From: Antechinus flavipes
Taxonomy: Eukaryota
Assembly (NCBI RefSeq): GCF_016432865.1
Contig: NC_067399.1
Coordinates: 1,922,001 to 1,986,000, forward strand
Direction of reading: 5' to 3'
Length of the DNA stretch: 64,000 nt
The notes beneath the pieces were generated by a model. That model worked only from the letters and a program-made list of their open reading frames with translations. It did no database searches and had not been told where the DNA came from. Every line of letters begins with the position of its first letter. Within the stretch, counting starts at the first letter, position 1. Positions 1 to 57,300 of the stretch are shown one piece after another. Position numbers and translations under genes: made by a program.

Positions 1-1775
1 AAAAAATTTAAAAAAAAAAGTAAATTATCTGTCTTGGATCTATTTTCCAGCTCAATAATTTTTCCAACAAGATATTTTACATTGTTTTCTATTTTTTCAT
101 TCTTTTGGTTTTATTACATTGCTTCTTAATTTTTAAAGAAAATCATTACCTTCCATTTGCTCAATTCTAATTTCTAAGGAATTATTTTCTTAAGTGAACT
201 TTTGTATTTCCTTTTCCATTTGGCCAATTTTGCTTTTTAACACTTTTTTTCTTTTGCATCTCATTTCTCTTCCCATTTTTTCTTCTGTCTCTTCTATCTC
301 TGTTACTTGATTTTCAGAATCCCTTTTTGAGCTCTTCCATGGCCATAGACCATTTCTTCTTCTTTTCAGAGTCTTTGGATGTAGGAACTTTGACTTTGTT
401 TTCTTCGGAGCATGTTTTTATCCTTCTTGTCGTCATAGTAACTTTCTATGCTCAGAATCTTTTCCTGTTGTTTGCTCATGTTCCCCAGCCTATTATTTGC
501 ACTTTAACTCTTTGTTAAAGTAGGCCTCTGTGCAAAAATGTTTGTGGCAGCCCTTTTTGTAGTGGCAAGAAACTGGAACCTGAGAGGATGCCCATCAGCT
601 GGGGGTGGCTGAATAAGTTATGGCATATGAATGTTATGAAATATTATTGTTCTGTAAGAAACGATCAACACGATGATTTCAGAGAGGCCTGGAGAGACTT
701 ACGTGAATGGATACTGAGTGAAAGGAGCAGAAACAGGATATCATTGTACTCGGCAATAGCAAGATTATACAACGGTCAATTCTGATAGACATGACTCTTT
801 TCAACAATGAGATGATTGAGGCCAGTTCCAATGATCTTGTGATGAAGAGAGCCATCCACACCCAGAGAGAGACTGTGGGAACTGAGGGTGCATCACAACA
901 TGACATTCTCACTCTGTTGTTTGCTTGCTTTTTGTTTTTCTCTTTTTTTCCTTTTTGAGTGGATTTTTTTTTTTTTGTGCAGCAAGAGAATTGTACAAAT
1001 ATGTTTACACATATTGGATTTAACATATATTTTAACATAGTTAATATGTATTGGACTACCTGCCATCTAGGAGAGGGGGTGGGGGGAAGGAGGGGAAAAT
1101 CTGCTATGCAAGGGGCAATATTGAAAAATTATTTGTGCATATGTTTTGAAAATAAAAAGCTTTAAGAAATGATAAAATAGGCTTCTGTTTCCAGGGTGGA
1201 GGGTGCAATGGCCCAAGCAGGGATTTTTAACGTTTTCAGAGCTGCCCCAAGGGACCTGTAAGCTTTCAGTTCTTCCAAAGAGAAGCGTGTTTGAGCACTC
1301 TTTTCTGTTCTGTACCCTGAGGAGAATTGACGCTGCCCTGGGACTGTAAGATGCTGAAAGAGCCCTTCCTTAGTGCTAGTAAAGACACTTGCTCTGAGCT
1401 GAGGCCTTCAGAAGCTGCCCTGCCACTACCCACACCCACTCTTGGTTTGCTGGTTTCCCAAGGCCCTTTCCCTGCCGACCACCAAGTTATCATAGGTGTC
1501 TCTGGGTTGAGAGGTCTGGAAACTTCTGGTACTGATTCGGAGGCCCGAGGGCCACCGGTGCCTTTCTGGAGCCTGGGCTTCCTGTGCCTGACTGTGAGGA
1601 CTCCCACTCTGATTCAGCAGACCCTTCCTGCTGACCTTCTAAGTTTCTAAGTTGGCTGGAAAATTGATCCTCTGACCGTGTGGGTTTTGACTCTAAAATT
1701 TGTGTAGAATCATTATCAGAGGGGCTGGATGGCTTCCTGCCTTCCCTTTGCCATCTTGGCTCCGTTTCCTCCCAG
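1..1775 (-). mobile_element. Older LINE-1, 5' portion (5'UTR plus ORF1 region), interrupted by a younger L1 at 531-1173
   Basis: The minus strand at about 1775 reads GGAGCCAAGATGGC, a typical L1 5' start. The T-rich antisense ORF1-like sequence at 1-516 continues directly at 1188 once the nested insert is removed. Confidence 0.65.
531..1173 (+). mobile_element. 5'-truncated LINE-1 (ORF2 C-terminus plus 3'UTR) with target-site duplication
   Basis: ORF2 C-terminal motif (AALFVVARNW...CPS..WLNKLWHMNVMKYYCSVRND), 3'UTR with G-rich tract and AATAAA at about 1151. Flanks aaagtaggcctctg (517-530) and aaaataggcttctg (1174-1187) form a 14-bp TSD with 2 mismatches. Confidence 0.85.
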
Positions 1776-2692
1776 AAGGTCTTTCTCTGATCTCCAGCCA
1801 CCGGGAGTTCTAGAACTTCCTCTGGTCGTTAGGTGGTTCCAGGGCGGAATTCCCACCCAGAATGTCAGCGGGGGCTGCATCATTTGGGCGTGTGACCCCA
1901 TGTAGCGCAGAGTCTTCTGTCACCCAGGGGAGCGTTCAATCGAATTTAATTTAACAGGGAACGAAGCTGGCTAAGTTTGCCCGGCTCCAGGTCAATGGGA
2001 GGCCTTTGTGAGGGCCCTGGCCTCGTTCCGGGTGGCAGCTCTCAATGGCTGCCCCCAAAAGACCAATGGATTCCATGCAATTCTCAGCTGTCCTCAAGGG
2101 GTCTAGAATTGTGGTCTCTCCTCTAGAGCAATCCATGCCCTAAGAAAACAGTTGTTGGGCTTGCGGTGGAATCGAAATGACTTCTGAGGGCAGAGCAGAA
2201 GCTGGCCAACAAGCACTGGGCACTCCTAGGTGCCAGGCTCTGCTTTGGGTGCTGGATCCTGCTGGTCCAAGAGCAGGGTTGGGGGGAGGGCTCTGATTGT
2301 CCCCCTAAACCGCTTCCCTTTGGCCTCTGGGCCCATGGATTCAATTTCTCCTCCCTCTAGACTGTTTGGTGACTGCTGGGGGGTCTCCGGCCTTTCCTCC
2401 AACCATCCATCAAAGGGGTTTTCCTAGAGCACGCATGTGACCATGTCACCCCCTACTCAGTAAAAACTCCAGTGGCTTCCTTCCTCTTTGGCCTTCAGAG
2501 CCTTTCACAACCTGCCCTCCCCTTCCCACTTTCTTATACCTTGTGCCCACGGGTCTGCTTTGCCTCAGTGACACTGGCCTCTGGGCCGAGGCTCCGTCTC
2601 CCACCTCTGGGCATTTCTCCCGTGTTGCCTGTGCCTGCCACATTCTCCCTCCTTATCTCTGCCTCCTTCAGTTCTCCCCTAAAAGGATGCCT

Positions 2693-3535
2693 GCCCAGCC
2701 CCCTCAATCCCTGGGCTGGTTCTCTGGTGATTATTCTCACTTGTTCTGCCCCGGTTCCCTCGATCCCTGGGCTGGTTCTCTGGTGATTATTCTCACTTGT
2801 TCTGCCCTGGTTCCCTCAATCCTTGAGCTGGTTCTCTGGTGATTATTGTTGCCCGTTTTGACCTGGCCCCCTCGATCCTTGGGCTGGTTCTCTGGTGATT
2901 ATTGTCGCCTGTTCTGCCCCAGCTCCCTCGATCCCTGGGCTGGTTCTCTGGTGATCATTCTCACTTGTTCTGCCCCGGTTCTCTCGATCCCAGGGCTGGT
3001 TCTCTGGTGATCATTCTCACTTGTTCTGCCCCGGTTCTCTCGATCCCAGGGCTGGTTCTCTGGTGATCATTCTCACTTGTTCTGCCCCGGTTCTCTCGAT
3101 CCCAGGGCTGGTTCTTTGGTGATCATTCTCACTTGTTCTGCCCCGGTTCTCTCGATCCCAGGGCTGGTTCTTTGGTGATCATTCTCACTTGTTCTGCCCC
3201 AGCTCCCTTGATCCCAGGGCTGGTTCTCTGGTGATCATTCTCACTTGTTCTGCCCCGGTTCCCTCGATCCCCGGGCTGGTTCTCTGGTGATTATTCTCAC
3301 TTGTTCTGCCCCGGTTCCCTCGATCCCCGGGCTGGTTCTCTGGTGATTATTCTCACTTGTTCTGCCCCAGCTCCCTCGATCCCAGGGCTGGTTCTCTGGT
3401 GATTATTCTCACTTGTTCTGCCCCGGTTCTCTCGATCCCCGGGCTGGTTCTCTGGTGATTATTGTCGCCTGTTCTGGCCCAGCTCCCTCGATCCCAGGGC
3501 TGATTCTCTGGTGATTATTCTTGCTCATTCTGGCC
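2693..3535. repeat. 56-bp minisatellite, about 15 copies
   Basis: Unit ctctcgatcccagggctggttctctggtgatcattctcacttgttctgccccggtt; successive copies start at 2981 and 3037. Confidence 0.95.
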
Positions 3536-3804
3536 ATGGCTCGTTTGCACACAGTTGTTCACATATTGTCTCCTCCATCACTCTGTGAGCTCTCCTGGAC
3601 TGGAACTACCTTTGCATTTCTTAGCAGATTTCCCGACAGCAGACATTTATCACGCGCTTATTGGTTGCCTGACATATACTTTTCAAAACCTACGGAATTG
3701 AAGTTGAGTTGATCTTCTGGATTGTTTTTATATCAAAATGTCCAAGTCTTTATTTGTAAAGATCATAATTTTTAAAAAAATGAACCTTTAAGGAAGAAAA
3801 TTAG

Positions 3805-4140
3805 TTTGAGACTCCATCGACAAGCTCTGTGACCCTGGGCAAGTCACTTAATCTCCATTGCCTCAACGACCAAAAAAAAAAGACGACTTCATTGAATAAT
3901 GTAGGGGTAGAGGAGGGGAATGAGCACTTCTATGCTACTGACTGTTGCTAAGACATTTACTAGACCTCACAAAAACCCTGGGAGGGAGGTGCTCTTATGC
4001 TCCCCATTTGACAAGCAAGTCAAGGCACACAGAAGTGAAGTGACATATCCAGGGTCACCCAGCTTGGAAGCTTCTGAGGCAGGATTTGAATTCAGTCCTT
4101 CCTGACTGCAGGCCCAGAGGCCTGTACCGTGTGCGACCGC
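3805..4140. mobile_element. SINE fragments (CORE-SINE 3' part on +, MIR on -)
   Basis: tgtgaccctgggcaagtcactta core with A tail at 3805-3885; antisense MIR core and tRNA head (gatttgaattcag) at 3955-4140. Confidence 0.6.
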
Positions 4141-4739
4141 CCAGCTGCCTGCCTGAGGTAGTTACGGCTTTACTTTGTGCTAGGTCCCAAGACTTCAAGA
4201 AGTTTCTCTCCCTTTGGGGAGATGGCGTCAGGTGGGGGCGGGCAGGGATGTGCCCTGAAGTAGCCTGGAGAGACCGGGGAGAATCGTTCAGGCTGGTGGC
4301 TTGTATTGAGTTCCTCCTGTAGGCCAGGGCTGGGCGAAGTCATGGAATCAGGGCCTCAGAGCCAAAGGTGGAGGGTGGAGGCAGGGAGGATGTTCTGAGA
4401 CCCGAGGGGCCCTGCCTGGACTGGCAGGGCCCCGACTCCCCTTGCAGGAGAGTGGCCATTTCCAGGTCCTGAAAGGGATGTTTTCGGGGGTTCCGCATTT
4501 CCTGCCCCAGGCTCCCGGGGGCTCGGTCTCAAGGGGCCTGTGGATTGGGAAGGGGTTGCTCATCTTGTGGCTCCCTGGGTGCGAAGCATTTCCTTTTCCT
4601 TTGGCTGCAGTAACAGGACCCCCGACATTTTAGGGTATGGCTGCTGGAGGGCAGGGGTCCTGGGGAGAGACCAGGGCTCTTCTCTCATGCTAGTAAGTCG
4701 TCCCCAAGCGACCCGGCACTTCTCAGTTTCTAGGGTCCG

Positions 4740-4907
4740 TGAATGATCGTCAGCAGATCATGCCCACCCACCGCCCGCAGTGACCGAGGGGAGGGCTTGC
4801 CGAGATAGCCGCGCGCTCAGGGATCCAGGCGGGCTTTCGCGTCAACAGAGAGATCGCCCGGGAGTCGTGAACACGCTTTGGAGCCAGAACAGCCGGCGCC
4901 CTCAAAG
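4740..4907 (+). promoter_or_regulatory. WDCP: CpG-rich WDCP promoter and non-coding exon 1
   Basis: CpG-dense segment ending in donor AAG|GTAATC at 4907/4908. A 195-nt intron runs to the acceptor ttccAG at 5101-5102, just upstream of the ATG. TSS not determinable. Confidence 0.55.
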
Positions 4908-5121
4908 GTAATCGGGATCGTGGAACCAGCGGCGCGAGAGCCTAGGCGGTGTTCTCAGAATGAGGCGCCCGAGGTCAGCAGGGGCTGCGAGAGGCCTGGG
5001 GGGGTGGGGGCTTGGCCAGGGGGCAGGGATCTACCGGAGAGGGGCGCCGGGGGGCAGGGCCTCTCCCCGCGAGCCCCCTGCCACGGTCTTGTGTGATTCC
5101 AGGTGCCTTCCGGCGGGAAGG

Positions 5122-8100
5122 ATGGACTTGGGCAAGAGCAAGCTCCTGCGCACTGGCCTCAACGCCCTGTACCAGGCGATCCATCCCATCCACGGCATCG
5201 CCTGGACCGACGGCAAGCAGGTGATCCTGATGACGCTGCAGCTGCAGAACCAGGAGCCCAAGTTCGGGAACTCGCGCATCATCGGGCAGTTCGAGCACGT
5301 GCACGGGCTGACCTGGAGCCCCCCGGGTGTCAGCGGCAGCCCCACGCTGCTGGCGGTGCAGCACAAGAAGCACGTGACCGTGTGGCAGCTGTGCGCCAGC
5401 CCCTCGGAGCGGAGCAAGCTGCTGGTGTCGCAGACGTGCGAGATCGGGGAGCCCTTCCCCGTGCTGCCGCAGGGCTGCGTCTGGCACCCCCACAAGGCCA
5501 TCCTGACGGTGCTCACCAGCCGCGACGTCTCCGTGCTGCACTCGGTGCACTGCGACAACTCGCGGGTGAAGGCCGACCTGGTCAAGGTGCACGGCTTCGT
5601 GCACTGCGCCTGCTGGACCCGGGACGGCCAGCGGCTGGTGGTGGCCGTGGGCAGCGCGCTGCACTCCTTCACCTGGGACGAGGCGCAGAAGGCCCTGCAC
5701 CTGTGCTCCTGCTGCCCCGTGTTTGAGGTGGGCAGCCCCATCTGCTCCGTGCTGGCCACCGTGGACATGCAGATCGCCGTGGCCACCGAGCTCCCGCTGG
5801 ACAAGATCTGCAGCCTGGGCTCCATGGAGGCCCTGGAGATCTCCCCCTCGTCCCGGGCGGGCAGCACGCAGCCGCCCTTCACGGACCCCCGGAAGACCAC
5901 CGGCAACTCGGAGCCCTCCTCCTCCTCCTCCGCGTCCATCTCGTCTTCGTCCCTGGATTCCCTGGTGCTCTCTCAGATTCTGCCCAGGAGCTCCCGGTCA
6001 GACTCCAACTCGCTCTTCAACCTCCGAGACAAGGACTGCTTGTCTGCCATGGATCAGGACTCCTCCCATCTGGTCCTGGTGACCTTCGACAGGATGGTCA
6101 CCGCCACCCGCAAGGTGGGCATCCCCGGCATCCTGGTGCCGGACATGCTGGCCTTTGACCCCCGGTCGCAGGTGGTCGCCGTGGCCTCCAACATGTGCCA
6201 CATCATCCTGATCTACGCGCTGGGCTCCTCGCTGGCTCCCAGCGTCCAGTGCATCCGGCTGGAGTCCTGCGAGAGGCCCAAGGGCATCTGCTTCTTGTCC
6301 GACAAGCGCCTGCTGATCCTGGTGGGGAAGCAGAAGTTCACGGACCCCACCTTCCTGCCCTCCTCCAAGTCCGACCGCTACACCATCCGCCTGGTCATCA
6401 GGGAGATCAGCTTCGAGGAAGAGCCCTCCTGGAGGTCCGTCTGGAGCCAGCAGGACTTCTGCAACGTCAAGGTGACGCTGGGCATGCCCACCAAGAAGAA
6501 GCTGGGGGAGAGCCACTACCCTATCTTCTACCCCCCGCGGAAGGAGCTCCTCCTCCCCGGGAGCCTCACCATCCACTCGCGGACGAGCGGCAAGACCCTG
6601 ATCGAGGAGATCTCGGAGCCTTCCCAGAGCTCCAGGTTCAACTCGCCGCCGCCCCCCACCGCCGCCTCTGCAGAAAGGCCGGAGGCCGGCCCTGGCCTCC
6701 AGCCCGCGGCCCTCCCCAGCCCCCACGCCGGGCCAAACTCCCCGAAGAACCACTGCCGCCTGATCCACGAGCCCCTGAACCTTCCCCAGGGCCAAGCCGC
6801 CAGCAACGAGAAGGAGGAAAGTCGGCTGTGCGCGACGCTGGACAGGCTGTCCGGGAACTTCACAGACCTCCACCAGCGCCTCTCCGAGCTCCTCGAGCTC
6901 CTGCGCAACCAGAAGCAGTCGCCCGCCCCCACCAGTTACCCGCACTCTCAAGACCCATGTTTTCTTCTCATCACCTGCCAGGTAACTGGGGGAGCTTCCT
7001 CTGTCCCCCACCCCCTAGACGAGTGGAGTCCTGGGTGTGTTGGGGCGGGGGGCTCTCCCGATTTCTGTATTGGCATCTGCTTTGGTGACGGGCGGGAATC
7101 ACTCACGGTTGGTGAGCCGAACGGACCCTTCTGTTAGGATGAGCGTTTCTTTAATCGTTGGCAGGACGCAGAAAGCAGAGTGCGCTGGGAAGCCATTTTG
7201 AACCTTGAGGTCTGTGGTTTCTTTGGGTTTTCGGTTCCCGTGTCCGTGACTTGGGAGGTCCCTGTCCCGTCCCCCTGAAGCTTGTCCAGCATTCATCGGG
7301 CAGGGATCGGGCAGAGCTGGAGCAGGGGCTTCTCACCCCTCCCGCTAGGTCACTCCTCGGACGGGGATTCCCTTCACTGATGCAGATCGCAGCATAGCAC
7401 CCTAATACGATGCTGTAAGGTTTGCAGAGCACTTTGTGGATGGGGTTTCATCTGCGCCTCATTCTTCGCTGTTGGAGACGATTTTAGACAAATATTAAAT
7501 ATGGCGCCTTTTTTTTTTTTTTTTTTTTTAAAGTAAAAGAGGCTATTTTCATTTGGCCAACATGAGGAACCTTAGGTTAAAAATTCATTCTCTTTACTTT
7601 CTCTTGTTCATCCAGTTGTAAAAGAGATAGGAACCTTCTTGCAAGGAAGAAGCTATTTCTGATTGGAGTGGAAGGGTTCCTTTTCACATCCTTGTTAGGC
7701 AGGACCAGTGGCCGCCCAGGCGGCCCCACGGCTGGGGGCGAGCCTCTTCCAGAGCCCCGTGGAGTTCTATCGGGATGGCCCCTCGCTGGAATCCCAGAAC
7801 CTAACACGGCACTCATGGTGGGGGGGTAGGGGGGGAGGGAGTGACCGCGCAAGCAGGGGCTGGCCAGGAGCTGGGAGACGCACAAAAGCAGTGATCTGAG
7901 GAGAAATGGTATCTGGGAGGAAGATGGGACATAGCTCACTCTGACTGGGACAGGAAAATGTTCTTTCGAGTCAGTTCTGTTAAAACTTTCTTTGGGGGAA
8001 ATGGGGAGTTTCCATGAAAAAGTATTCATTTTGTGTGTGACAAAATATGGCTTAAATATTTTAAAGCTAATTTTAAAAAATCCTCATCTTTTACCTTAAT

Positions 8101-50077: not shown

Positions 50078-51314
50078 GTAAGAGCCCGGACCCCTGCCGG
50101 CCGGCACTTATCGAGCGCCTGCTGTTTGCCCGGCTCTCCGGGGCGTACGGGGGGCGGCCTGGGGTGTGGGCGCTTCCTTCTCCCCTGTGCCCCCGCGGCC
50201 CCCTCGTAGTGCTCTCTGCCCCCGGCTGTGGCGGAGTGAACCCCCTTTCCCCCGACGGCCTTCCTTCCTCGACCTCCCCCAGCTGTCGGGTCGCGCTCTC
50301 CCCCGTCCTGGCTCGAGCTTCTGCGCCCATTGTAGCGGCGAGAACGCCGGGGCCCGGAGCGCCCTGGGAGCTCGTTGGCGCTGCCCGGCCTGTCGCAGCT
50401 TGCGGCCCCACGGTAGGGCTGTGCCCGGGCCCCCGCACGCCCCGGGGATCCCGTGTTCCCCCCTCCCCGCGCGGGGGGCAGAGGCCGTGAGCAGACGGGC
50501 CCCCCGAGTTAGGGCCCTCTCACGGGGGAGGGCAGCGGCTGCCACGCGCTTCCTCCTCGCCAAAGCATCGAGGCTCAATGACGGGCTCCCCCAGCGCCGA
50601 GAAGGGGGCGCTTGCTCAGCGGGGCCCGAGGCGGGCGGGCCGAGGGTCTGGCAGCATTCGCACTCGGGCCCTGGGCCCGCCGCCTTCCCGCCGCCTTCCC
50701 CCGCCGGTTTCATTTTTTGTGCGCGCAGGGATCCGCTTTCCCCAAAATAGAGAGATTCCGGCCGGCCCGTTGGGGGCCGGCGGGGTGAGCTTGGCCCAAG
50801 GGAGCGGCCTTCTCCCGGGGCTCCCACTGGGGGGCGGCGGCACGGGGGCCCTCCGGGAGTCGGGCAGTAGTGAAGGCCCGCGGTTCCAGCGGGGGAGGGG
50901 GCGGGAGCCCCTGCGGGCACCCCTCCCCGTGTGGCCCCCAGAGGGAGCTGTGGAGGCGCGGGGAGCACCCGGGCGCCTCTGAGGGCCGGAGCCTCGCCCG
51001 CATCTTGGCATTGGCCGGGTGCCAGGGGCCGCCTCAAGGAGCTTCTTGCGCCAGTGAGCGGGCAGAGTCTGGGCTGGTACCGGTTTGCCCTCCCAGTCTT
51101 CGCCCACCTTTCCTGACCGCCCCCTCCCCCTCAGAGAAGGAATAAGAAGGGGCGAAAGCCCCAGCCCGGCCAGAGTTAAGCAACAGGTTGGCCAGATGGG
51201 CTCCAGACGCGCCCCACCTCTGCCGGGAGGGGCTGAGTCAGGAGTCTTGCGCCACTTCGGCCTCTTGGGTTGACATTGTTGTCTAATGATGGTTTTCCTG
51301 GTTCCTGGGGCGGC

Positions 51315-52880
51315 TTCTGGGGAGGCTCCCCCCCGTCCCCCCAAGGTTCCCCCAAGGTTCCCTTTGGCTGCCTCTGTCACTGTTAGGAACGGCTTCCGGG
51401 GAGGCTCCCCCCCTGTCCCCCCAAGGTTCCCCCAAGGTTCCCTTTGGCTGCCTCTGTCACTGTTAGGAACGGCTTCCGGGGAGGCTCCCCCCCTGTTCCC
51501 CCAAGGTTCCCTTGGCTGCCTCTGTCACTGTTAGGAACGGCTTCCGGGGAGGCTCCCCCCCTGTCCCCCCAAGGTTCCCCCAAGGTTCCCTTTGGCTGCC
51601 TCTGTCACTGTTAGGAACAGCTTCCGGGGAGGCTCCCCTCCTGTCCCCCCAAGGTTCCCCCCAAGGTTCCCTTTGGCTGCCTCTGTTAGTGTTCCCCCCT
51701 GTCCCCCCGAGGTTCCCTTTGGCTGCCTCTGTTAGTGTTCCCCCCTGTCCCCCCCAGGTTCCCTTTGGCTGCCTCTGTTAGTGTTAGGAACGGCTTCCGG
51801 GGAGGCTCCCCCCCGTCCCCCCAAGGTTCCCCCAAGGTTCCCTTTGGCTGCCTCTGTCACTGTTAGGAACGGCTTCCGGGGAGGCTCCCCCCCTGTCCCC
51901 CCAAGGTTCCCCCCAAGGTTCCCTTTGGCTGCCTCTGTCACTGTTAGGAACGGCTTCCGGGGAGGCTCCCCCCCTGTTCCCCCAAGGTTCCCTTTGGCTG
52001 CCTCTGTCACTGTTAGGAACGGCTTCCGGGGAGGCTCCCCCCCTGTCCCCCCAAGGTTCCCCCCAAGGTTCCCTTTGGCTGCCTCTGTCACTGTTAGGAA
52101 CGGCTTCCGGGGAGGCTCCCCCCCTGTCCCCCCAAGGTTCCCCCTGAGGTTCCCTTTGGCTGCCTCTGTTAGTGTTCCCCCCGTCCCCCTGAGGTTCCCT
52201 TTGGCTGCCTCTGTTAGTGTTCCCCCCAAGGTTCCCCCCCAGGTTCCCTTTGGCTGCCTCTGTTAGTGTTAGGAACGGCTTCGGGGAGGCTCCCCCCCGT
52301 CCCCCCAGGTTCCCCCCAAGGTTCCCTTTGGCTGCCTCTGTCACTGTTAGGAACGGCTTCCGGGGAGGCTCCCCCCCTGTCCCCCCAAGGTTCCCCCCAA
52401 GGTTCCCTTTGGCTGCCTCTGTCACTGTTAGGAACGGCTTCCGGGGAGGCTCCCCCCCTGTTCCCCCAAGGTTCCCTTTGGCTGCCTCTGTCACTGTTAG
52501 GAACGGCTTCCGGGGAGGCTCCCCCCCTGTTCCCCCAAGGTTCCCTTTGGCTGCCTCTGTCACTGTTAGGAACGGCTTCCGGGGAGGCTCCCCCCCTGTC
52601 CCCCCAAGGTTCCCCCTGAGGTTCCTTTGGCTGCCTCTGTTAGTGTTCCCCCCTGTCCCCCCCAGGTTCCCTTTGGCTGCCTCTGTTAGTGTTAGGAACG
52701 GCTTCCGGGGAGGCTCCCCCCCGTCCCCCCAAGGTTCCCCCAAGGTTCCCTTTGGCTGCCTCTGTCACTGTTAGGAACGGCTTCCGGGGAGGCTCCCCCC
52801 CTGTCCCCCCAAGGTTCCCCCCGAGGTTCCCTTTGGCTGCCTCTGTCACTGTTAGGAACGGCTTCCGGGGAGGCTCCCTG
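51315..52880. repeat. VNTR of about 69-80-bp units with about 37-bp truncated variants, in ATAD2B intron 1
   Basis: Unit gttccctttggctgcctctgtcactgttaggaacggcttccggggaggctccccccctgtccccccaag(gttccccccaag); copies start at 51357 and 51437. Confidence 0.95.
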
Positions 52881-53047
52881 CTTGACCTCCTCCGAGCCTT
52901 CACGTTGAGCGGCCGGCCCCGTAATAATGCTTGCCTGGGTTCCGAGTCTCGGTTCTCTGACTGTCTCTGGGAAAGGAGCTGCCCGAAATGTCCGGGGGCC
53001 CAGGGGCCTCTGCTCTGTGCTCCCCGTGGGACACCCGGGGACTTCCG

Positions 53048-53488
53048 TGTAATGGGCTGAGGCTTGAGTTGATGCACTGAGGTCCCAAGCACATGAGGCT
53101 AAATAGTAATTGGACCATACTCTATTAATAGATAAGCTTGGAGAGAGAATGGCCCCCACCCACTCTTTGTGCAAGTCCTGATGTGTTGTATAGGAAATGA
53201 CGATTTTGGTGGGTGGAGGCAGGGGAGTGGAGAAGGAAGGGGAGGAGAGACCTTTGGGACGGCCATTGCCTCAGTTGCCGACACAGTTGCCTCCATGGTT
53301 GCCTCGGCTCGCGTCGCTCTCTCTTAGCTGGCTTCCTGTCGCAACTGCCTATATTTGCTATCGCAATCTTTCTTGCCTATATTTGCTATAGCAATCTTTA
53401 TTCACCTCTTCGCTTCAATAAATATTGAAGATTTTCCCCTTAACCTGAATTCCTGACTCCGGCTGACTTTAAATACGCGGTCATTACA
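53048..53488 (+). mobile_element. Complete ERV2 (betaretrovirus-like) LTR, 441 bp
   Basis: TGTAATG...CATTACA terminal inverted repeat; AATAAA at 53417-53422; followed by tt and a PBS. Confidence 0.92.
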
Positions 53489-53490
53489 TT

Positions 53491-53508
53491 TGGCGCCCAA
53501 CGTGGGGC
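53491..53508 (+). other. Primer binding site for tRNA-Lys1,2
   Basis: TGGCGCCCAACGTGGGGC, the 18-nt complement of the tRNA-Lys(CUU) 3' end used by betaretroviruses. Confidence 0.93.
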
Positions 53509-53509
53509 T

Positions 53510-53984
53510 AAAGCTGCCTCAGATTCACCCCGCCCTTGAGCCTCACTTAAGTCTTCATGCCCTGTGGGGATATGGCCATTAATCTGTTCTTTGTCTTCCT
53601 CCTTTACCTCAGGCTTCCGCATTTGGCCATTCTTAGAGTTTTTTCCTTTTCTCCTAAAACTAGTACGGTATTTTAAGGCCATCTGTATCGTATTATATAA
53701 ATAGAATGCCTCGAAGGGAACTGACTGAGAGTTGTCAATGTTATAATCAGAGATCTGTTGACCAACCAATGCCCAGTTACCCAGAGAGATTTGCTCTTCC
53801 TCTAAGAACCCAGGGGAGGTAAGTTTTAATGTACTCAAAAGTTTAGCTGCGTGTTCCAAGATACAACTAGCCCTTCCTCTTCTATCAGGTCACGCAGGCT
53901 TTTTATAACACCACTCCTGGGTGGGGCAGGGGTTGGGGGGTTTGGGGTGGGGGATGGAGAATCTTTACCTAGGATCTGTCCCAT
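53510..53984 (-). pseudogene. gag: Inverted, truncated ERV gag 5' end (matrix domain) with one frameshift
   Basis: ATG at 53984: MGQILGKDSPSP...SLRDLIEEEGLVVSW, a 1-nt frameshift, then HAAKLLSTLKLTSPGFLEEEQISLGNWALVGQQI...VPFEAFYLYNTIQMAL. This resembles betaretroviral MA (MGQ start, PWF.EE...W..VG pattern). The 3' breakpoint is uncertain. Confidence 0.8.
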
Positions 53985-54005
53985 TTCAGCCAAAAAGTTA
54001 CTGCG

Positions 54006-54118
54006 TTGAAGTCAAGAGGAAGGGGAGGAGATGGCTCAGTGGATAGAGCACTAGCCTTGAAGTCAAGAGGACCTGAGTTCAAATCCAGCCTCAGACACTT
54101 AACAAACAGTAAAAGTAA
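54006..54118 (+). mobile_element. tRNA-derived SINE head inside the ERV remnant
   Basis: A-box tggctcagtgg and B-box gagttcaaatcc; the 15-mer ttgaagtcaagagga occurs twice (about 54006 and about 54056). Confidence 0.75.
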
Positions 54119-54119
54119 G

Positions 54120-54356
54120 TGGAGGCAACCGTGGCAATGGCAGTCCCAAAAGTCTCTCCTTCCCCTTCCTTCTCCACTCCCCTGCCTCCACCCACCAAAA
54201 TCGTCATTTCCTATACAACACATCAGGACTTGCACAAAGAGTGGGTGGGGGCCATTCTCTCTCCAAGCTTATCTATTAATAGAGTATGGTCCAATTACTA
54301 TTTAGCCTCATGTGCTTGGGACCTCAGTGCATCAACTCAAGCCTCAGCCCATTACA
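54120..54356 (-). mobile_element. Inverted partial LTR (U3 5' end) of the same ERV
   Basis: 54161-54356 is the exact reverse complement of 53048-53243; flanked on the right by cttccg (54357-54362). Confidence 0.92.
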
Positions 54357-57300
54357 CTTCCGGGCCCGGGTCCCGGCTGCTCTCCAGGAGGACCGGTCCC
54401 CCCTCAGAAACGCATCTCTTTTCTCACCCTCAGGAAAGAGGAGCCGTTGCCCGCAGGCTGTGCAGCCCGGGGAGATGCCCGCCCGTGTCGGTGCCCGCTC
54501 TGGGCCTGTCAGCAGGGCGTGAGCTTGGGCCGGCAGGCGGGGGCGCCCGTCCCCTGACTCTTTGTCAGCTGCTGGAAGGCTCTTGGTCTCAAACCCCTGA
54601 GTCACTGATTTCATTCGAGGCTCTTTTCTCCAGTCTCGTTCCTTGGTTCCGTTGTCAGTGCAGACCCGCTTTTTCGGGTGTTTAAGCCCCCGCTCCCCCC
54701 AGATTCTTCCCTGCCCTCGGCAGGTCCGAGCTGCCGTCGCCCTCGGAGAGCTGACGGGCGCTTCCCTCCTTTGTGCCCTAGTTGTGGCGCGGGGAGTCCC
54801 TCCCGGTGCTCACCCCGTGGCGCTTGACGGGCCCGGCATCCGGGAGCGCTGCTGAGTGGGTTTGAGGGGCGCTGCTTTGTGGGCCAGTGTGAGGTCGGGG
54901 ATCGCCGGGCGTCCACTTTTTCCCATTAAACCCTGTCCTTTGGCAACTGCCTTGAGCAAGATGGGAAGCCCAAGGTCATTGCGGTAGTCTGCGGCAGCGA
55001 AGGGGGGAGGGGGACCTCATGGCCCAGCTAGCTGCATGACCCGGACAAGCCCCTTGTCCCTCTTCCCCCAAGTTTTCTCACCTGTAAAGTGAGACGCAGA
55101 AGGGCAGGGCCCACACTCCAAGCTCTCTGCCAAGAAAGTGGGTCTCAGAGACCGGGCCGGGACCGGAAGAGTCTGGGGGCCTGGCCTGGGGGGATTCTGA
55201 GGGTGGGGGAGCCGCTCACTGCAGAGAAGGCTGCCTGTGGCTGCCGCGGAGACCCGGGCCTCTGGCTGGGCCGTTCTGGGACGCCGGCTCCAGTGGTGAG
55301 GCCGGGGTGCGGCCGGAGTCGCCGCCTGCAGCTCCAGATCCTCCGCTCCCTTTGGGAAGGCGGGAAAAGGAGCGCCCGCGGTCGGGGCAGACAAGTGTCC
55401 GAACCGGCCAGCCTGAGGCGCAGCCGGGCTTCCTGGGGCTCCCTGCGGAGGCCCAGCCCGGGTGGTCGGTGCCGGGAGCCTTTCGTAGCCCACTATCCTA
55501 TTGCATCCCTTCCTCTTCCAGCTTGTTCTAAGCCTTTCTTGTCCTTCGTTAGGGCGTTGGGGTGCTCCCTCTCCACCCTGAGGGACAGCCCCTGGTGGGG
55601 TCAGGGTCATCCGGAGCAGCGCGTGGGGCAGCCCAGCATGGGAGAAGACTGGGGAGGTTCTGGAAGGCTTTGAATGCCATGTGGAGGGTTGGAGATCTGG
55701 TCCTGAGGCCAGAGCGAGCCGCAGGCGTTTAGGAGTGGGGACGGCGGTTCTGCCGTGGTCAGAAAGTGAAGGGTCTGAGAAGAGGGGCCTCGAAGGCCAG
55801 ATCGCTGACAGCTGACAGAGTGAGCCCCGGAGGACGGCACCTGAGCTGGGAGAGGGGGCAGAGTTCCGGGGAAAGAGCCTCCACTTGGGGACGATGGGAA
55901 GGCAGGAGAGAAATCGGGCCTGGACAAGGCCGTGGGAGGATCCGGAGACGCTGGTCAGGCCAAATGGCCAAGAGGCCAGAGGGGAGCCCAGTCTGGTCCT
56001 GAGAGGCCCTGCGGCTGGGGGGCATCCAGCAGGGGGGAGGGGGAACCTGGAGAAAATGGGGGCAAGGTCGGATGACTGGTAGGGAGGGAGAGGGATGTGG
56101 GGGAGAAGGGAGCAGAGGTCGTAGCTGTCTCGGGGGGTGATTGGGAGAAGTGGGGTGCAGCGAACAGAAGGGGTCGGCAGTGAGATACCTAGGAGACAGG
56201 AGACAGGGAGGGAAAGGAGGGAAATGTGCAGAAGGGCCCTTCTCTGGCCTTAAAAACAAGCCCTTTTCCACGTGGGGGCTGCCGGGGAGCCACGCCAGGG
56301 CGCTCAGGAGCAGCTCCGGAGGGATGGCTTCCGTGGCTGCAGAGACCAGTTCACAATTAGAGAAGCCCCCTTCCCCCCGAAGCTCTCGCGATCCCCCGGC
56401 TCCCTCAGCGCGCCTGTGTCTGAGGCCGCTGTCCGGCCCCCTCCCACCCTGCCGGTGCCCTTTAACCTCACGCCCCATCCCGCACCCTTTGCGTTTTGTT
56501 TGTGGGGCTCCCCCATGAGGTTGTGAGCCCATCGGGGCAGGCTCTGTTTTTTGCCCCCTTTTGCTTCCCCCGCCCTTAGCACAGTGCCTGGCACACAGTA
56601 GGAGCTTGATAAATGCTTGTTGACCCATTGACTTTCTGCAGCTCTGCCTCCTCTGACCGTCCTGTGACGGGGAACTCAGGGTCCTTCTGCAGCTGGTCAG
56701 GGACGGTCGGAACTTTGGGGGGGCTGGCCTCAGCGCTCTGGGACACAAGCCCACCCCGGCCAGTTTGCCCGTTCCTTTTTTGAAAGTCGGGGAAACGGTC
56801 GCTTCTCTTTGCTCCGGCTGGCCCTGGCTGGACTCTGGAAGCCCCTCGGGGAGGTCAGCCTTCCCGCCCCCCAGGTGTCATGGACCGGGGGCCTCAGACT
56901 TGTGCCCGGCCAGCCTGCGGCACGGGCCTGCGCTGGGGGCCAACTTCCTCGCCCCCGCTCGCCTTCGTTGGGTGATGGGTTGGGGCGTGGGGTTGCTAGA
57001 CCTCAGACGGGGCCCTGGGCCGGGCACGGACACTTCACGAGCTTGTTCCTCACGGGGACTCGGGGTCCAGCTGCGAGGCCGGAAGGAGCCGGGTCAAGTT
57101 CCTTCTTGACTTGGCTCCGTTCACCCGGAGGAGAAGCTGCAGACACGAGGAGCCTTTCTGTGGGAGAAGGTGGGCAGCCCCCTGGATGTCCGCCCGCAGG
57201 ACGCCGCCCTGACACGCTGCCCGGCTCTGGCCCTTCGTGCGCCTGCCAGGTCACCTCTGTGCAGATTAACTGGACCGGTTCCCGAAGGCCCCTTTGGTGG

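What the first reader, a model, noticed from the sequence alone, without database searches (positions are those of the whole stretch)
53488..53560. Strand switch lies at or just after the PBS, like a captured plus-strand strong-stop DNA
Seen: the plus-sense viral part is U3-R-U5 plus the 18-nt PBS, and the minus-strand gag frame stays open right through to the PBS. Established: plus-strand strong-stop DNA ends after copying 18 nt of primer tRNA. Inference: a failed second strand transfer, in which the strong-stop 3' end primed on a plus-sense template in gag, copied back through the leader, then jumped to U3 DNA to create the second U3 end. I cannot fix the breakpoint exactly; it lies between 53509 and roughly 53560 or somewhat beyond.
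Basis: inference. Interest (0 to 1): 0.7.

Follow-up and report, generated by a model that had tools for sequence, protein, structure and literature searches.

The report
SINE parasite hijacks failed retroviral copying
This 1.3-kb insertion in a marsupial genome has two retroviral left ends facing each other and flips direction exactly where a copy of the primer tRNA ends; it is likely a fossil of a retroviral copying step that fails again and again in this virus family, and its far end belongs to a family of hundreds of short SINE-virus hybrids that likely spread by borrowing the virus's copying and integration enzymes.

Summary
Confirmed and extended. The insertion (53048-54356, 6-bp target duplication, empty site in other individuals) switches strand inside a 7-nt overlap (53502-53508) between the PBS 3' end and gag; no leader intervenes. 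Its PBS is the tRNA-Lys(CTT) copy, not the family's mismatched PBS. Of 78 LTR ends with this tRNA-type PBS only 14 continue normally (family-type PBS: 40 of 40); 38 turn antisense at the only three GCCCCAC sites of the mapped copy, 15 read on into the tRNA. The six gag-site copies are not one clade: the error recurs. The far end is not a bare jump to U3 DNA but a multi-copy unit, SINE head plus antisense U3 (460 head matches; 165 with the commonest join), usually between two U3 ends with 6-bp duplications. A sharp 5' limit 15 nt before the A box, a T4 at U3 187 in 37 of 57 units, helper-derived distal arms and successive subfamilies suggest a Pol III RNA that hijacks the virus's plus strand and integrase. 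That RNA is inferred, not seen. Ten paper searches found no such element; Dfam/Repbase not checked. The scan earlier noted one other LTR-capped capture in this genome, not this.

The parts
53042..53047 (.). left copy of the 6-bp target-site duplication
   Evidence: one copy only in the empty-site contigs of runs X1 and X3 (table 8)
53048..53488 (+). complete LTR (U3-R-U5), TG...CA, of an env-less class II-like ERV
   Evidence: 99.8% and 99.3% to the two LTRs of map copy L063
53491..53508 (+). PBS identical to the complement of the last 18 nt of tRNA-Lys(CTT); differs from the family PBS
   Evidence: family type at 301 LTR ends
53502..53508 (.). 7-nt microhomology where the strand switches
   Evidence: same join in L002, L003, L004, L039, L098
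53502..54004 (-). gag 5' part (matrix) and about 20 nt of leader, inverted; start codon at 53984; frameshifted near 53855
   Evidence: 99.4% to ordinary copies, map 1122 to about 619
54005..54005 (.). base that fits neither leader nor SINE, inside a 4-of-5 microsimilarity at the second join
54006..54020 (+). 15-nt repeat of an inner SINE stretch (second copy at 54058), likely a short hop to another SINE RNA via AGGA
   Evidence: like hops in L052, L053, L054, L055, L096, L114
54017..54031 (+). 15-nt head identical to U3 187-201 sense, the predicted RNA 5' end and strand-transfer handle
54032..54105 (+). tRNA-related SINE head with A-box-like (54032-54042) and B-box-like (54075-54086) motifs
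   Evidence: Rfam tRNA 54025-54093, 27.5 bits, under the gathering score of 29, E 0.0034; box consensus recalled
54106..54123 (+). short linker that defines the shortest subfamily of the unit
54124..54356 (-). second U3 end (U3 232 to 1), inverted; identical to the left LTR over 1-195, five differences in 195-226
54357..54362 (.). right copy of the target-site duplication

Best explanation
[quoted passage not shown] Steps. (1) Shown: the family PBS differs from tRNA-Lys(CTT) by an extra base and at the last two bases, so the tRNA-copied 3' end cannot pair at the normal landing site. (2) Inferred: that free end pairs by its last 7 nt with GCCCCAC in plus-sense viral RNA and is extended backwards (strand A: LTR, PBS, gag antisense). 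(3) Inferred: a second PPT-primed plus strand stalls near U3 187-200, switches to the 3' end of the SINE-U3 RNA and runs off its 5' end (strand B: U3, SINE antisense). (4) Inferred: A and B join by their 3' ends and fill in, giving DNA with two U3 ends that integrase inserts. (5) Inferred: without strand A, strand B pairs by its last 15 nt with U3 187-201 and copies back to the U3 start, which rebuilds the commonest 530-620-bp form; this form puts the 15-nt head in front of the A box again, so the unit would renew itself as a non-autonomous element of the ERV.
For: PBS as strand marker: tRNA sequence goes into the plus strand, viral PBS into the minus strand (PMC4549124); strong stop needs m1A58 (PMC8599865 abstract). 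14 of 78 tRNA-type PBS ends continue into leader, against 40 of 40 family-type ends, Fisher p 6e-20. 38 of 39 antisense interior joins at the three 7-nt sites, used 31:6:1, the order of their 30-nt duplex energies. 15 of 78 read on into tRNA-Lys for 37-58 nt, 4 with A in place of T at the first base, so this tRNA is the primer. Six gag-site copies need 6 changes on the tree, AU p 0.0002, and have different far ends. L073 and L086 hold two such strands joined tail to tail. Unit: 211, 460 and 165 pattern matches, reversed-pattern controls 0; perfect 6-bp duplication in 33 of 42 two-ended elements; head match to U3 never between 17 and 39 nt in 44 rows; first T4 at U3 186-188 in 37 of 57 units; arms differ at 0.008 per site in U3 1-187 and 0.068 in 188-226 in 18 elements and share private variants; plus strands ending at U3 186-189 in 7 loci; CORE-bearing forms go with the older helper type in 10 of 11, the shortest form with the youngest in 9 of 12. 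Empty site in runs X1 and X3.
Against: By energy the normal landing site still wins (-23.0 kcal/mol against -10 to -13 for the three sites, DNA parameters), so the mispriming must be kinetic, which is untested; a 6-nt site with a similar 30-nt energy (2291) is unused. 18 of 57 units, the window's included, have no T4 inside. 5 of 42 elements show no duplication. Five elements integrated with one end cut at U3 186-189, so a second U3 end is not strictly needed. Whether the gag template was RNA or plus-strand DNA is not resolved. Arm identity could partly come from gene conversion between inverted arms. 301 family-type against 14 normal tRNA-type ends is far from the 50:50 expected from PMC4549124 and is unexplained. 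Three far joins at the RT site fall at 3350/3351, so a few may share an origin or a stop site; 7 of 28 such loci ran past the fetched DNA.
Confidence: 0.72

Rival explanations
1. The PBS/gag join arose once and was then copied; the window is a descendant.
For: Six loci share the join to the base; L002 and L004 keep PPT and a 3' LTR and could be transcribed.
Against: Not one clade on 33 rows, AU p 0.0002 (bootstrap not settled, three rows under half filled); far ends all differ; L002 has the opposite layout; two other GCCCCAC sites give the same kind of join.
Confidence: 0.04
2. Auto-integration or a rearrangement in the chromosome after insertion inverted gag.
For: Auto-integration makes inversions in LTR retrotransposon particles (PMC7197481 passages); inverted repeats can recombine.
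Against: The join lies 20 nt past the U5 CA, after a tRNA-type PBS, not at a processed LTR end; those inversions were spread along the element, these sit at three sites; both outer ends meet an intact duplication and a clean empty site.
Confidence: 0.03
3. The strong-stop mispriming is right, but the SINE-U3 unit does not renew itself: one or a few abundant RNAs (or an antisense Pol II transcript) are captured again and again and every copy is a dead end.
For: No RNA seen; about two thirds of sampled units have irregular far ends; host RNA capture by LTR machinery through microsimilarity is known (PMC5131818 passages).
Against: The RNA's inferred 5' head is U3 187-201 sense, which stands before the A box only in copies made by the cycle itself; nested linker deletions define several subfamilies that track helper age; A/B boxes and a T4 bracket exactly the part not derived from the helper.
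Confidence: 0.2

Closest known systems
Aberrant retroviral strand transfer (Pulsinelli and Temin 1991, title only from the reference list of PMC9278108; asymmetric-LTR HIV-1 proviruses, PMC9278108 passages)
   Same: Errors at the strand-transfer steps, with template switching between the two packaged RNAs, leave defective integrated copies.
   Different: Here the error is fixed in the germline dozens of times, is tied to a family-wide PBS mismatch, goes to three 7-nt sites, inverts polarity and gives two U3 ends. The 1991 paper was not held, so I cannot say whether it describes plus-strand mispriming on RNA.
MEBrv 3, env-less betaretrovirus-like ERVs of dasyurid marsupials (PMC11334065, passages and section 10)
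   Same: About 7 kb, gag-pro-pol, no env frame, near-identical LTRs, class II-like pol.
   Different: No sequence comparison made. The paper's main text has 0 occurrences of 'primer binding', 'PBS', 'tRNA' or 'inverted'.
WSINE1 / marsupial CORE-SINEs (PMC3403934 passages; PMC4408412 passages and section 13)
   Same: tRNA-related head; the long forms keep a CORE-like stretch and an A-rich tail (the WSINE1 label is recalled, no reference sequence compared).
   Different: WSINE1 ends in a poly(A) tail, is expected to be LINE1-propagated and is reported inactive for about 30 My in dasyurids; this unit ends in retroviral U3 termini with fixed 6-bp duplications, and copies are 94-100% alike.
LTR-mediated retrocopies (Tan et al. 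2016, PMC5131818 passages)
   Same: Host RNA captured by RT template switches at short similarities, then inserted by integrase; some are copied again.
   Different: Those keep two direct LTRs, PBS and PPT; this unit has inverted U3 ends, no PBS, PPT, R or U5, and its own predicted Pol III promoter. 0 occurrences of 'SINE' or 'inverted' in that text.
TRIM and Cassandra mini LTR retrotransposons; MITEs (recalled)
   Same: Short, non-coding, moved in trans; Cassandra carries Pol III (5S) sequence; MITEs have inverted ends.
   Different: TRIM/Cassandra have direct LTRs with PBS and PPT; MITEs move as DNA by a transposase. Here the inverted ends are integrase attachment sites and the middle shows marks of reverse transcription.

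Membership tests
captured plus-strand strong-stop DNA | U3-R-U5 followed by exactly 18 nt complementary to the primer tRNA | tested here: met
captured plus-strand strong-stop DNA | PBS follows the tRNA, not the viral genome | tested here: met
   tRNA-type in the window; family type at 301 ends; 41 of 41 tRNA-pattern matches are the standard type
captured plus-strand strong-stop DNA | no leader after the PBS | tested here: met
class II (beta-like) ERV as helper | gag-pro-pol with RT, RNase H, integrase; pol nearest to betaretroviral structures | tested here: met
   Pfam domains in L063; top PDB hits 7sr6, 7usf, 3jca (their identity as HERV-K RT and MMTV integrase is recalled)
class II (beta-like) ERV as helper | tRNA-Lys primer and 6-bp duplication (recalled as typical) | tested here: met
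MEBrv 3 | about 7.3 kb, no env frame, near-identical LTRs | tested here: met
   L063 spans 64-7046, no frame of 100 aa between pol and the 3' LTR
MEBrv 3 | RT groups with MEBrv 3 sequences | not tested
   no reference sequences obtained; supplements not opened
auto-integration product | join at a processed LTR end (CA) | tested here: not met
   join 20 nt beyond the U5 CA
LINE-dependent SINE (WSINE1) | tRNA-related head with internal A and B boxes | tested here: met
   Rfam tRNA match just under the gathering score; box motifs recalled
LINE-dependent SINE (WSINE1) | 3' A tail next to a duplication of variable length | tested here: not met
   ends are TG...CA U3 termini; 33 of 42 with exact 6-bp duplication
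TRIM / Cassandra / LTR-mediated retrocopy | two direct LTRs with PBS and PPT inside | tested here: not met
   commonest form has inverted U3 arms and neither signal; a minority (L136, L223, L224) carry direct U3 pieces and a PPT
MITE | terminal inverted repeats and fixed-length duplication | tested here: met
MITE | ends shared with a DNA transposon; copies move unchanged as DNA | tested here: not met
   ends are the ERV's U3; arms are renewed from the helper and far ends vary
Pol III-transcribed retroelement | RNA with the predicted start and end exists | not testable with these tools
   only assembled contigs were offered

The most novel reading that the evidence does not exclude
A SINE that had lost its LINE partner came back to life as a parasite of an endogenous retrovirus: an RNA of about 185 nt or more, made by Pol III, with no PBS, PPT or R, captures the virus's nascent plus strand by a short antisense-U3 tail, rebuilds two U3 ends through a 15-nt handle, is inserted by the viral integrase, and has spread to hundreds of sites in successive subfamilies. 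It was born from, and still caps, the failed second strand transfers that the family's mismatched PBS provokes. This would be a new class of mobile element: SINE promoter, MITE-like shape, retroviral enzymes.
Probability: 0.6. Interest if true: 0.93.

Novelty: categorically new. Interest (0 to 1): 0.85.

Why it matters
First, the genome holds a countable fossil record of reverse transcription going wrong: the PBS mismatch marks each strand's origin, so mispriming, tRNA read-through and one-ended integration can be tallied in a natural germline. This bears on how a retrovirus keeps a mismatched PBS, and on what integrase accepts. Second, SINEs are taken to depend on LINEs; a SINE-derived element that moves with retroviral RT and integrase, in a lineage where its SINE parent is reported long dead (PMC4408412), would be a new route of transposon parasitism and a possible natural interfering RNA against the ERV. 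Third, these insertions are very young (this one is absent from other individuals' contigs) and would be misread as solo LTRs, SINEs or DNA transposons by standard annotation. The rating 'categorically new' refers to the SINE-U3 unit; the PBS/gag join alone is a new variant of known strand-transfer errors.

Tried and rejected
Assembly artefact: rejected by matching duplications at many loci and the clean empty site; no laid contig spans the whole filled allele, which says nothing either way. Single origin, auto-integration and chromosomal inversion: see rivals. A variant tRNA matching the family PBS: 0 of 41 matches (one exact pattern only). Simple thermodynamics as the cause of mispriming: not supported. 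A master unit that keeps the antisense PPT and is primed directly by the PPT RNA: only 1 of 42 elements (L162) has it, so not adopted. The unit as a variant LTR flanking an internal region in pairs: five close pairs were fetched and proved to be tandem duplications or complex single events. Presence of the unit in more distant species: the second laying of runs returned nothing, so this is open; small word shares in organisms C-G are no evidence. Runs X5 and X6 (organism B) show joins between U3 and the SINE head (table 5) but with short sides. Pfam on eight long frames elsewhere in the window: one real gene, seven blank. Sequence look-up among earlier findings: nothing. Paper searches that found no description of either phenomenon; the library lacks most subscription and older papers, and no supplements, Dfam or Repbase entries were seen, any of which could hold the element under another name.

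Full report
Scope. The window is G000:C2:1922001-1986000. The host is a marsupial, probably a dasyurid (inferred from the SINE type and the env-less beta-like ERV; the SINE label is recalled). All comparisons are between single natural copies; L063 serves as the coordinate map (LTRs 64-504 and 6606-7046; gag, pro and pol domains; no env frame).

The observation. The element runs from TG at 53048 to CA at 54356 between two copies of a 6-bp sequence. Contigs of runs X1 and X3 join the flanks with one copy of it, so the insertion is real, bounded to the base and absent from some chromosomes; X5 and X6 do not cover the flanks. From the left: a full LTR, TT, an 18-nt PBS, then gag antisense. Against ordinary copies the gag match starts at 53502, so the last 7 nt of the PBS are also gag antisense and no leader lies between. 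The open minus frame is gag matrix, but its start codon at 53984 is out of frame because of a one-base gap near 53855. Gag antisense and about 20 nt of leader end at 54004; then come one odd base, a 15-nt repeat, a SINE head and antisense U3 232 to 1.

The PBS tells which strand it was. The plus-strand PBS is copied from the tRNA and the minus-strand PBS from the viral RNA (PMC4549124, first 10,000 of 17,379 characters read), and the stop at 18 nt needs m1A58 (PMC8599865, abstract). This family's PBS has an extra base and differs at the last two positions: 301 LTR ends carry it, and a pattern that allowed for a matching tRNA found 41 matches, all of the standard type; ARAGORN called tRNA-Lys(CTT) in 5 of 15 loci scanned. 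The window has the tRNA type. All 78 exact tRNA-type ends were fetched (the 130 one-mismatch rows were not): 14 continue into leader, 38 turn antisense at GCCCCAC sites (31 sites in 28 loci in RT, 6 in gag, 1 near the gag start), 15 read on into the tRNA, 11 go elsewhere (4 SINE head, 2 antisense U3, 1 antisense interior with 4-nt overlap, 3 sense interior, 1 unmapped). The first 40 of the 301 family-type ends all continue into leader (p 6e-20). The map has exactly three plus-sense sites that pair with the last 7 nt, out of 6071 positions, and all three are used. With the family PBS the tRNA copy pairs over 16 bases but leaves its last two free; the normal duplex is still the more stable, so I infer that what matters is a paired 3' end that RT can extend.

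Recurrent, not inherited. The six gag-site copies (window, L002, L003, L004, L039, L098) need 6 changes on a tree of 33 rows (L036 had no match, L065 was left out, bootstrap not settled), and holding them together is rejected, p-AU 0.0002. Their far ends differ: full second inverted LTR (L003, L098), return to pol and a direct 3' LTR (L004), the reverse layout (L002), the SINE unit (window). At the RT site 21 of 28 loci show their far join; these differ, apart from three near 3350. L073 and L086 are two misprimed strands joined tail to tail. Auto-integration (PMC7197481 passages) joins at processed LTR ends and scatters; this does neither.

The far end is a family. The stretch 54008-54140 matched 40 scored candidates at 94-99%. 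Patterns give 211 matches for the shorter forms, 460 for the U3-derived head plus A box and 165 for head joined to longer U3, reversed controls 0; matches are not copy numbers. In 30 loci chosen by the 3' pattern, 11 rows (10 elements) have the form U3(1-201) / SINE head / antisense U3; the others join the unit to full LTRs, tRNA read-throughs or viral interior (likewise). Of 42 two-ended elements 33 have an exact 6-bp duplication, 3 one mismatch, 1 five bases, 5 none.

Why I infer a Pol III RNA that hijacks the plus strand. (a) 5' end: in 44 rows chosen without regard to the head (8 of them false hits at 0-1 nt), the match to U3 before the A box is 16 nt or less in 41 and 40 or more in 3, never between: a run-off end about 15 nt before the A box. 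(b) 3' end: the first T4 lies at U3 186-188 in 37 of 57 units, elsewhere in 2, absent in 18, the window's included; some copies stop right there (L225, L131). (c) Source of the arms: in 18 elements whose left arm covers the region, the two arms differ at 0.008 per site in U3 1-187 and 0.068 in 188-226; across 41 elements arms are closer within than between elements, 0 of 5000 permutations, three misaligned rows kept in; in the window the arms are identical over 1-195. So the distal arm comes from the same helper as the left LTR, and only the proximal part and the SINE from the RNA. (d) Plus strands often end at U3 186-189 (7 loci), where the switch would occur. (e) The head is U3 187-201 sense, which stands before the A box only in the commonest product, so templates were likely transcribed from earlier products. 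(f) Nested linker deletions define subfamilies; CORE-bearing forms go with the older helper type in 10 of 11, the shortest with the youngest in 9 of 12 (48 units). None of this shows the RNA itself; the runs on offer were contigs.

How the window's copy likely formed. Strand A: strong-stop DNA misprimed at the gag site and extended back to just before the start codon. Strand B: U3 from the same helper, switched to the shortest-subfamily RNA, run off, hopped briefly to another SINE RNA. A and B met at a 4-of-5 microsimilarity, filled in, and were integrated through two U3 ends. Shown: the parts, joins, PBS type, recurrence, duplications. Inferred: the order, the RNA nature of the templates, Pol III transcription and self-renewal.

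Comparison with what is known. The helper fits the description of MEBrv 3 (PMC11334065, passages and section 10) but was not compared by sequence. WSINE1 is described as poly(A)-tailed, LINE1-dependent and inactive for about 30 My in dasyurids (PMC3403934 passages; PMC4408412 passages and section 13). LTR-mediated retrocopies keep direct LTRs (PMC5131818 passages; lead from earlier finding e1-9285193). Strand-transfer errors are known (PMC9278108 passages; Pulsinelli and Temin 1991, title only). TRIM, Cassandra and MITE features are recalled. The unit fails a defining feature of each. Ten searches found no description; older and subscription papers, supplements, Dfam and Repbase were not seen.

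Verdict. Observation confirmed; first reading right at the PBS join (about 0.9) and wrong at the far end; whole mechanism 0.72; self-renewing SINE parasite of an ERV, undescribed, about 0.6. Interest 0.85.

Noticed in passing
L024, L027, L028, L035, L038, L042, L044, L075, L078, L082, L087, L091, L103, L104: LTR plus PBS runs on for 37-58 nt into the complement of tRNA-Lys(CTT); 4 of 15 carry A instead of T opposite position 58, a fossil of misreading at the modified base; two copy the whole tRNA.
   Followed up: yes
G000 genome-wide: 301 LTR ends with the mismatched family PBS against 14 normal copies with the tRNA-type PBS, far from the 50:50 expected; the mismatch is somehow kept. Unexplained; the two patterns differ slightly in tolerance.
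   Followed up: partly
L024, L099, L136, L224, L226: Elements whose right end stops at U3 186-189 with no CA yet have 6-bp duplications: one-ended integrations at a plus-strand stall in front of a purine tract.
   Followed up: partly
L003, L098, L033, L080: Mini-proviruses with two inverted LTR ends and exact 6-bp duplications, without the SINE unit.
   Followed up: yes
L156:1087-2110: SINE with CORE and tail joined to a whole antisense LTR: a possible early form of the unit.
   Followed up: partly
L136, L223, L224, L222: Direct-repeat forms: U3(1-201), SINE head, a 3' viral stretch with PPT, then U3 again; they look like TRIM-type offshoots of the unit.
   Followed up: partly
L133:1426-1615: The predicted RNA folds with its two ends in a long stem, z -4.3 against shuffles; this follows from the inverted arms.
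   Followed up: partly
one-mismatch rows: Related LTR types with other end sequences also carry the tRNA-type PBS and, loci, read-through copies; not classified.
   Followed up: no
window 51214-52902: GC-rich minisatellite (units of about 69-81 bp) just left of the insertion; several other VNTRs in the window.
   Followed up: no
window 4912-7137 (+): Long exon of a WDCP-family host gene (Pfam E 3.9e-279).
   Followed up: no
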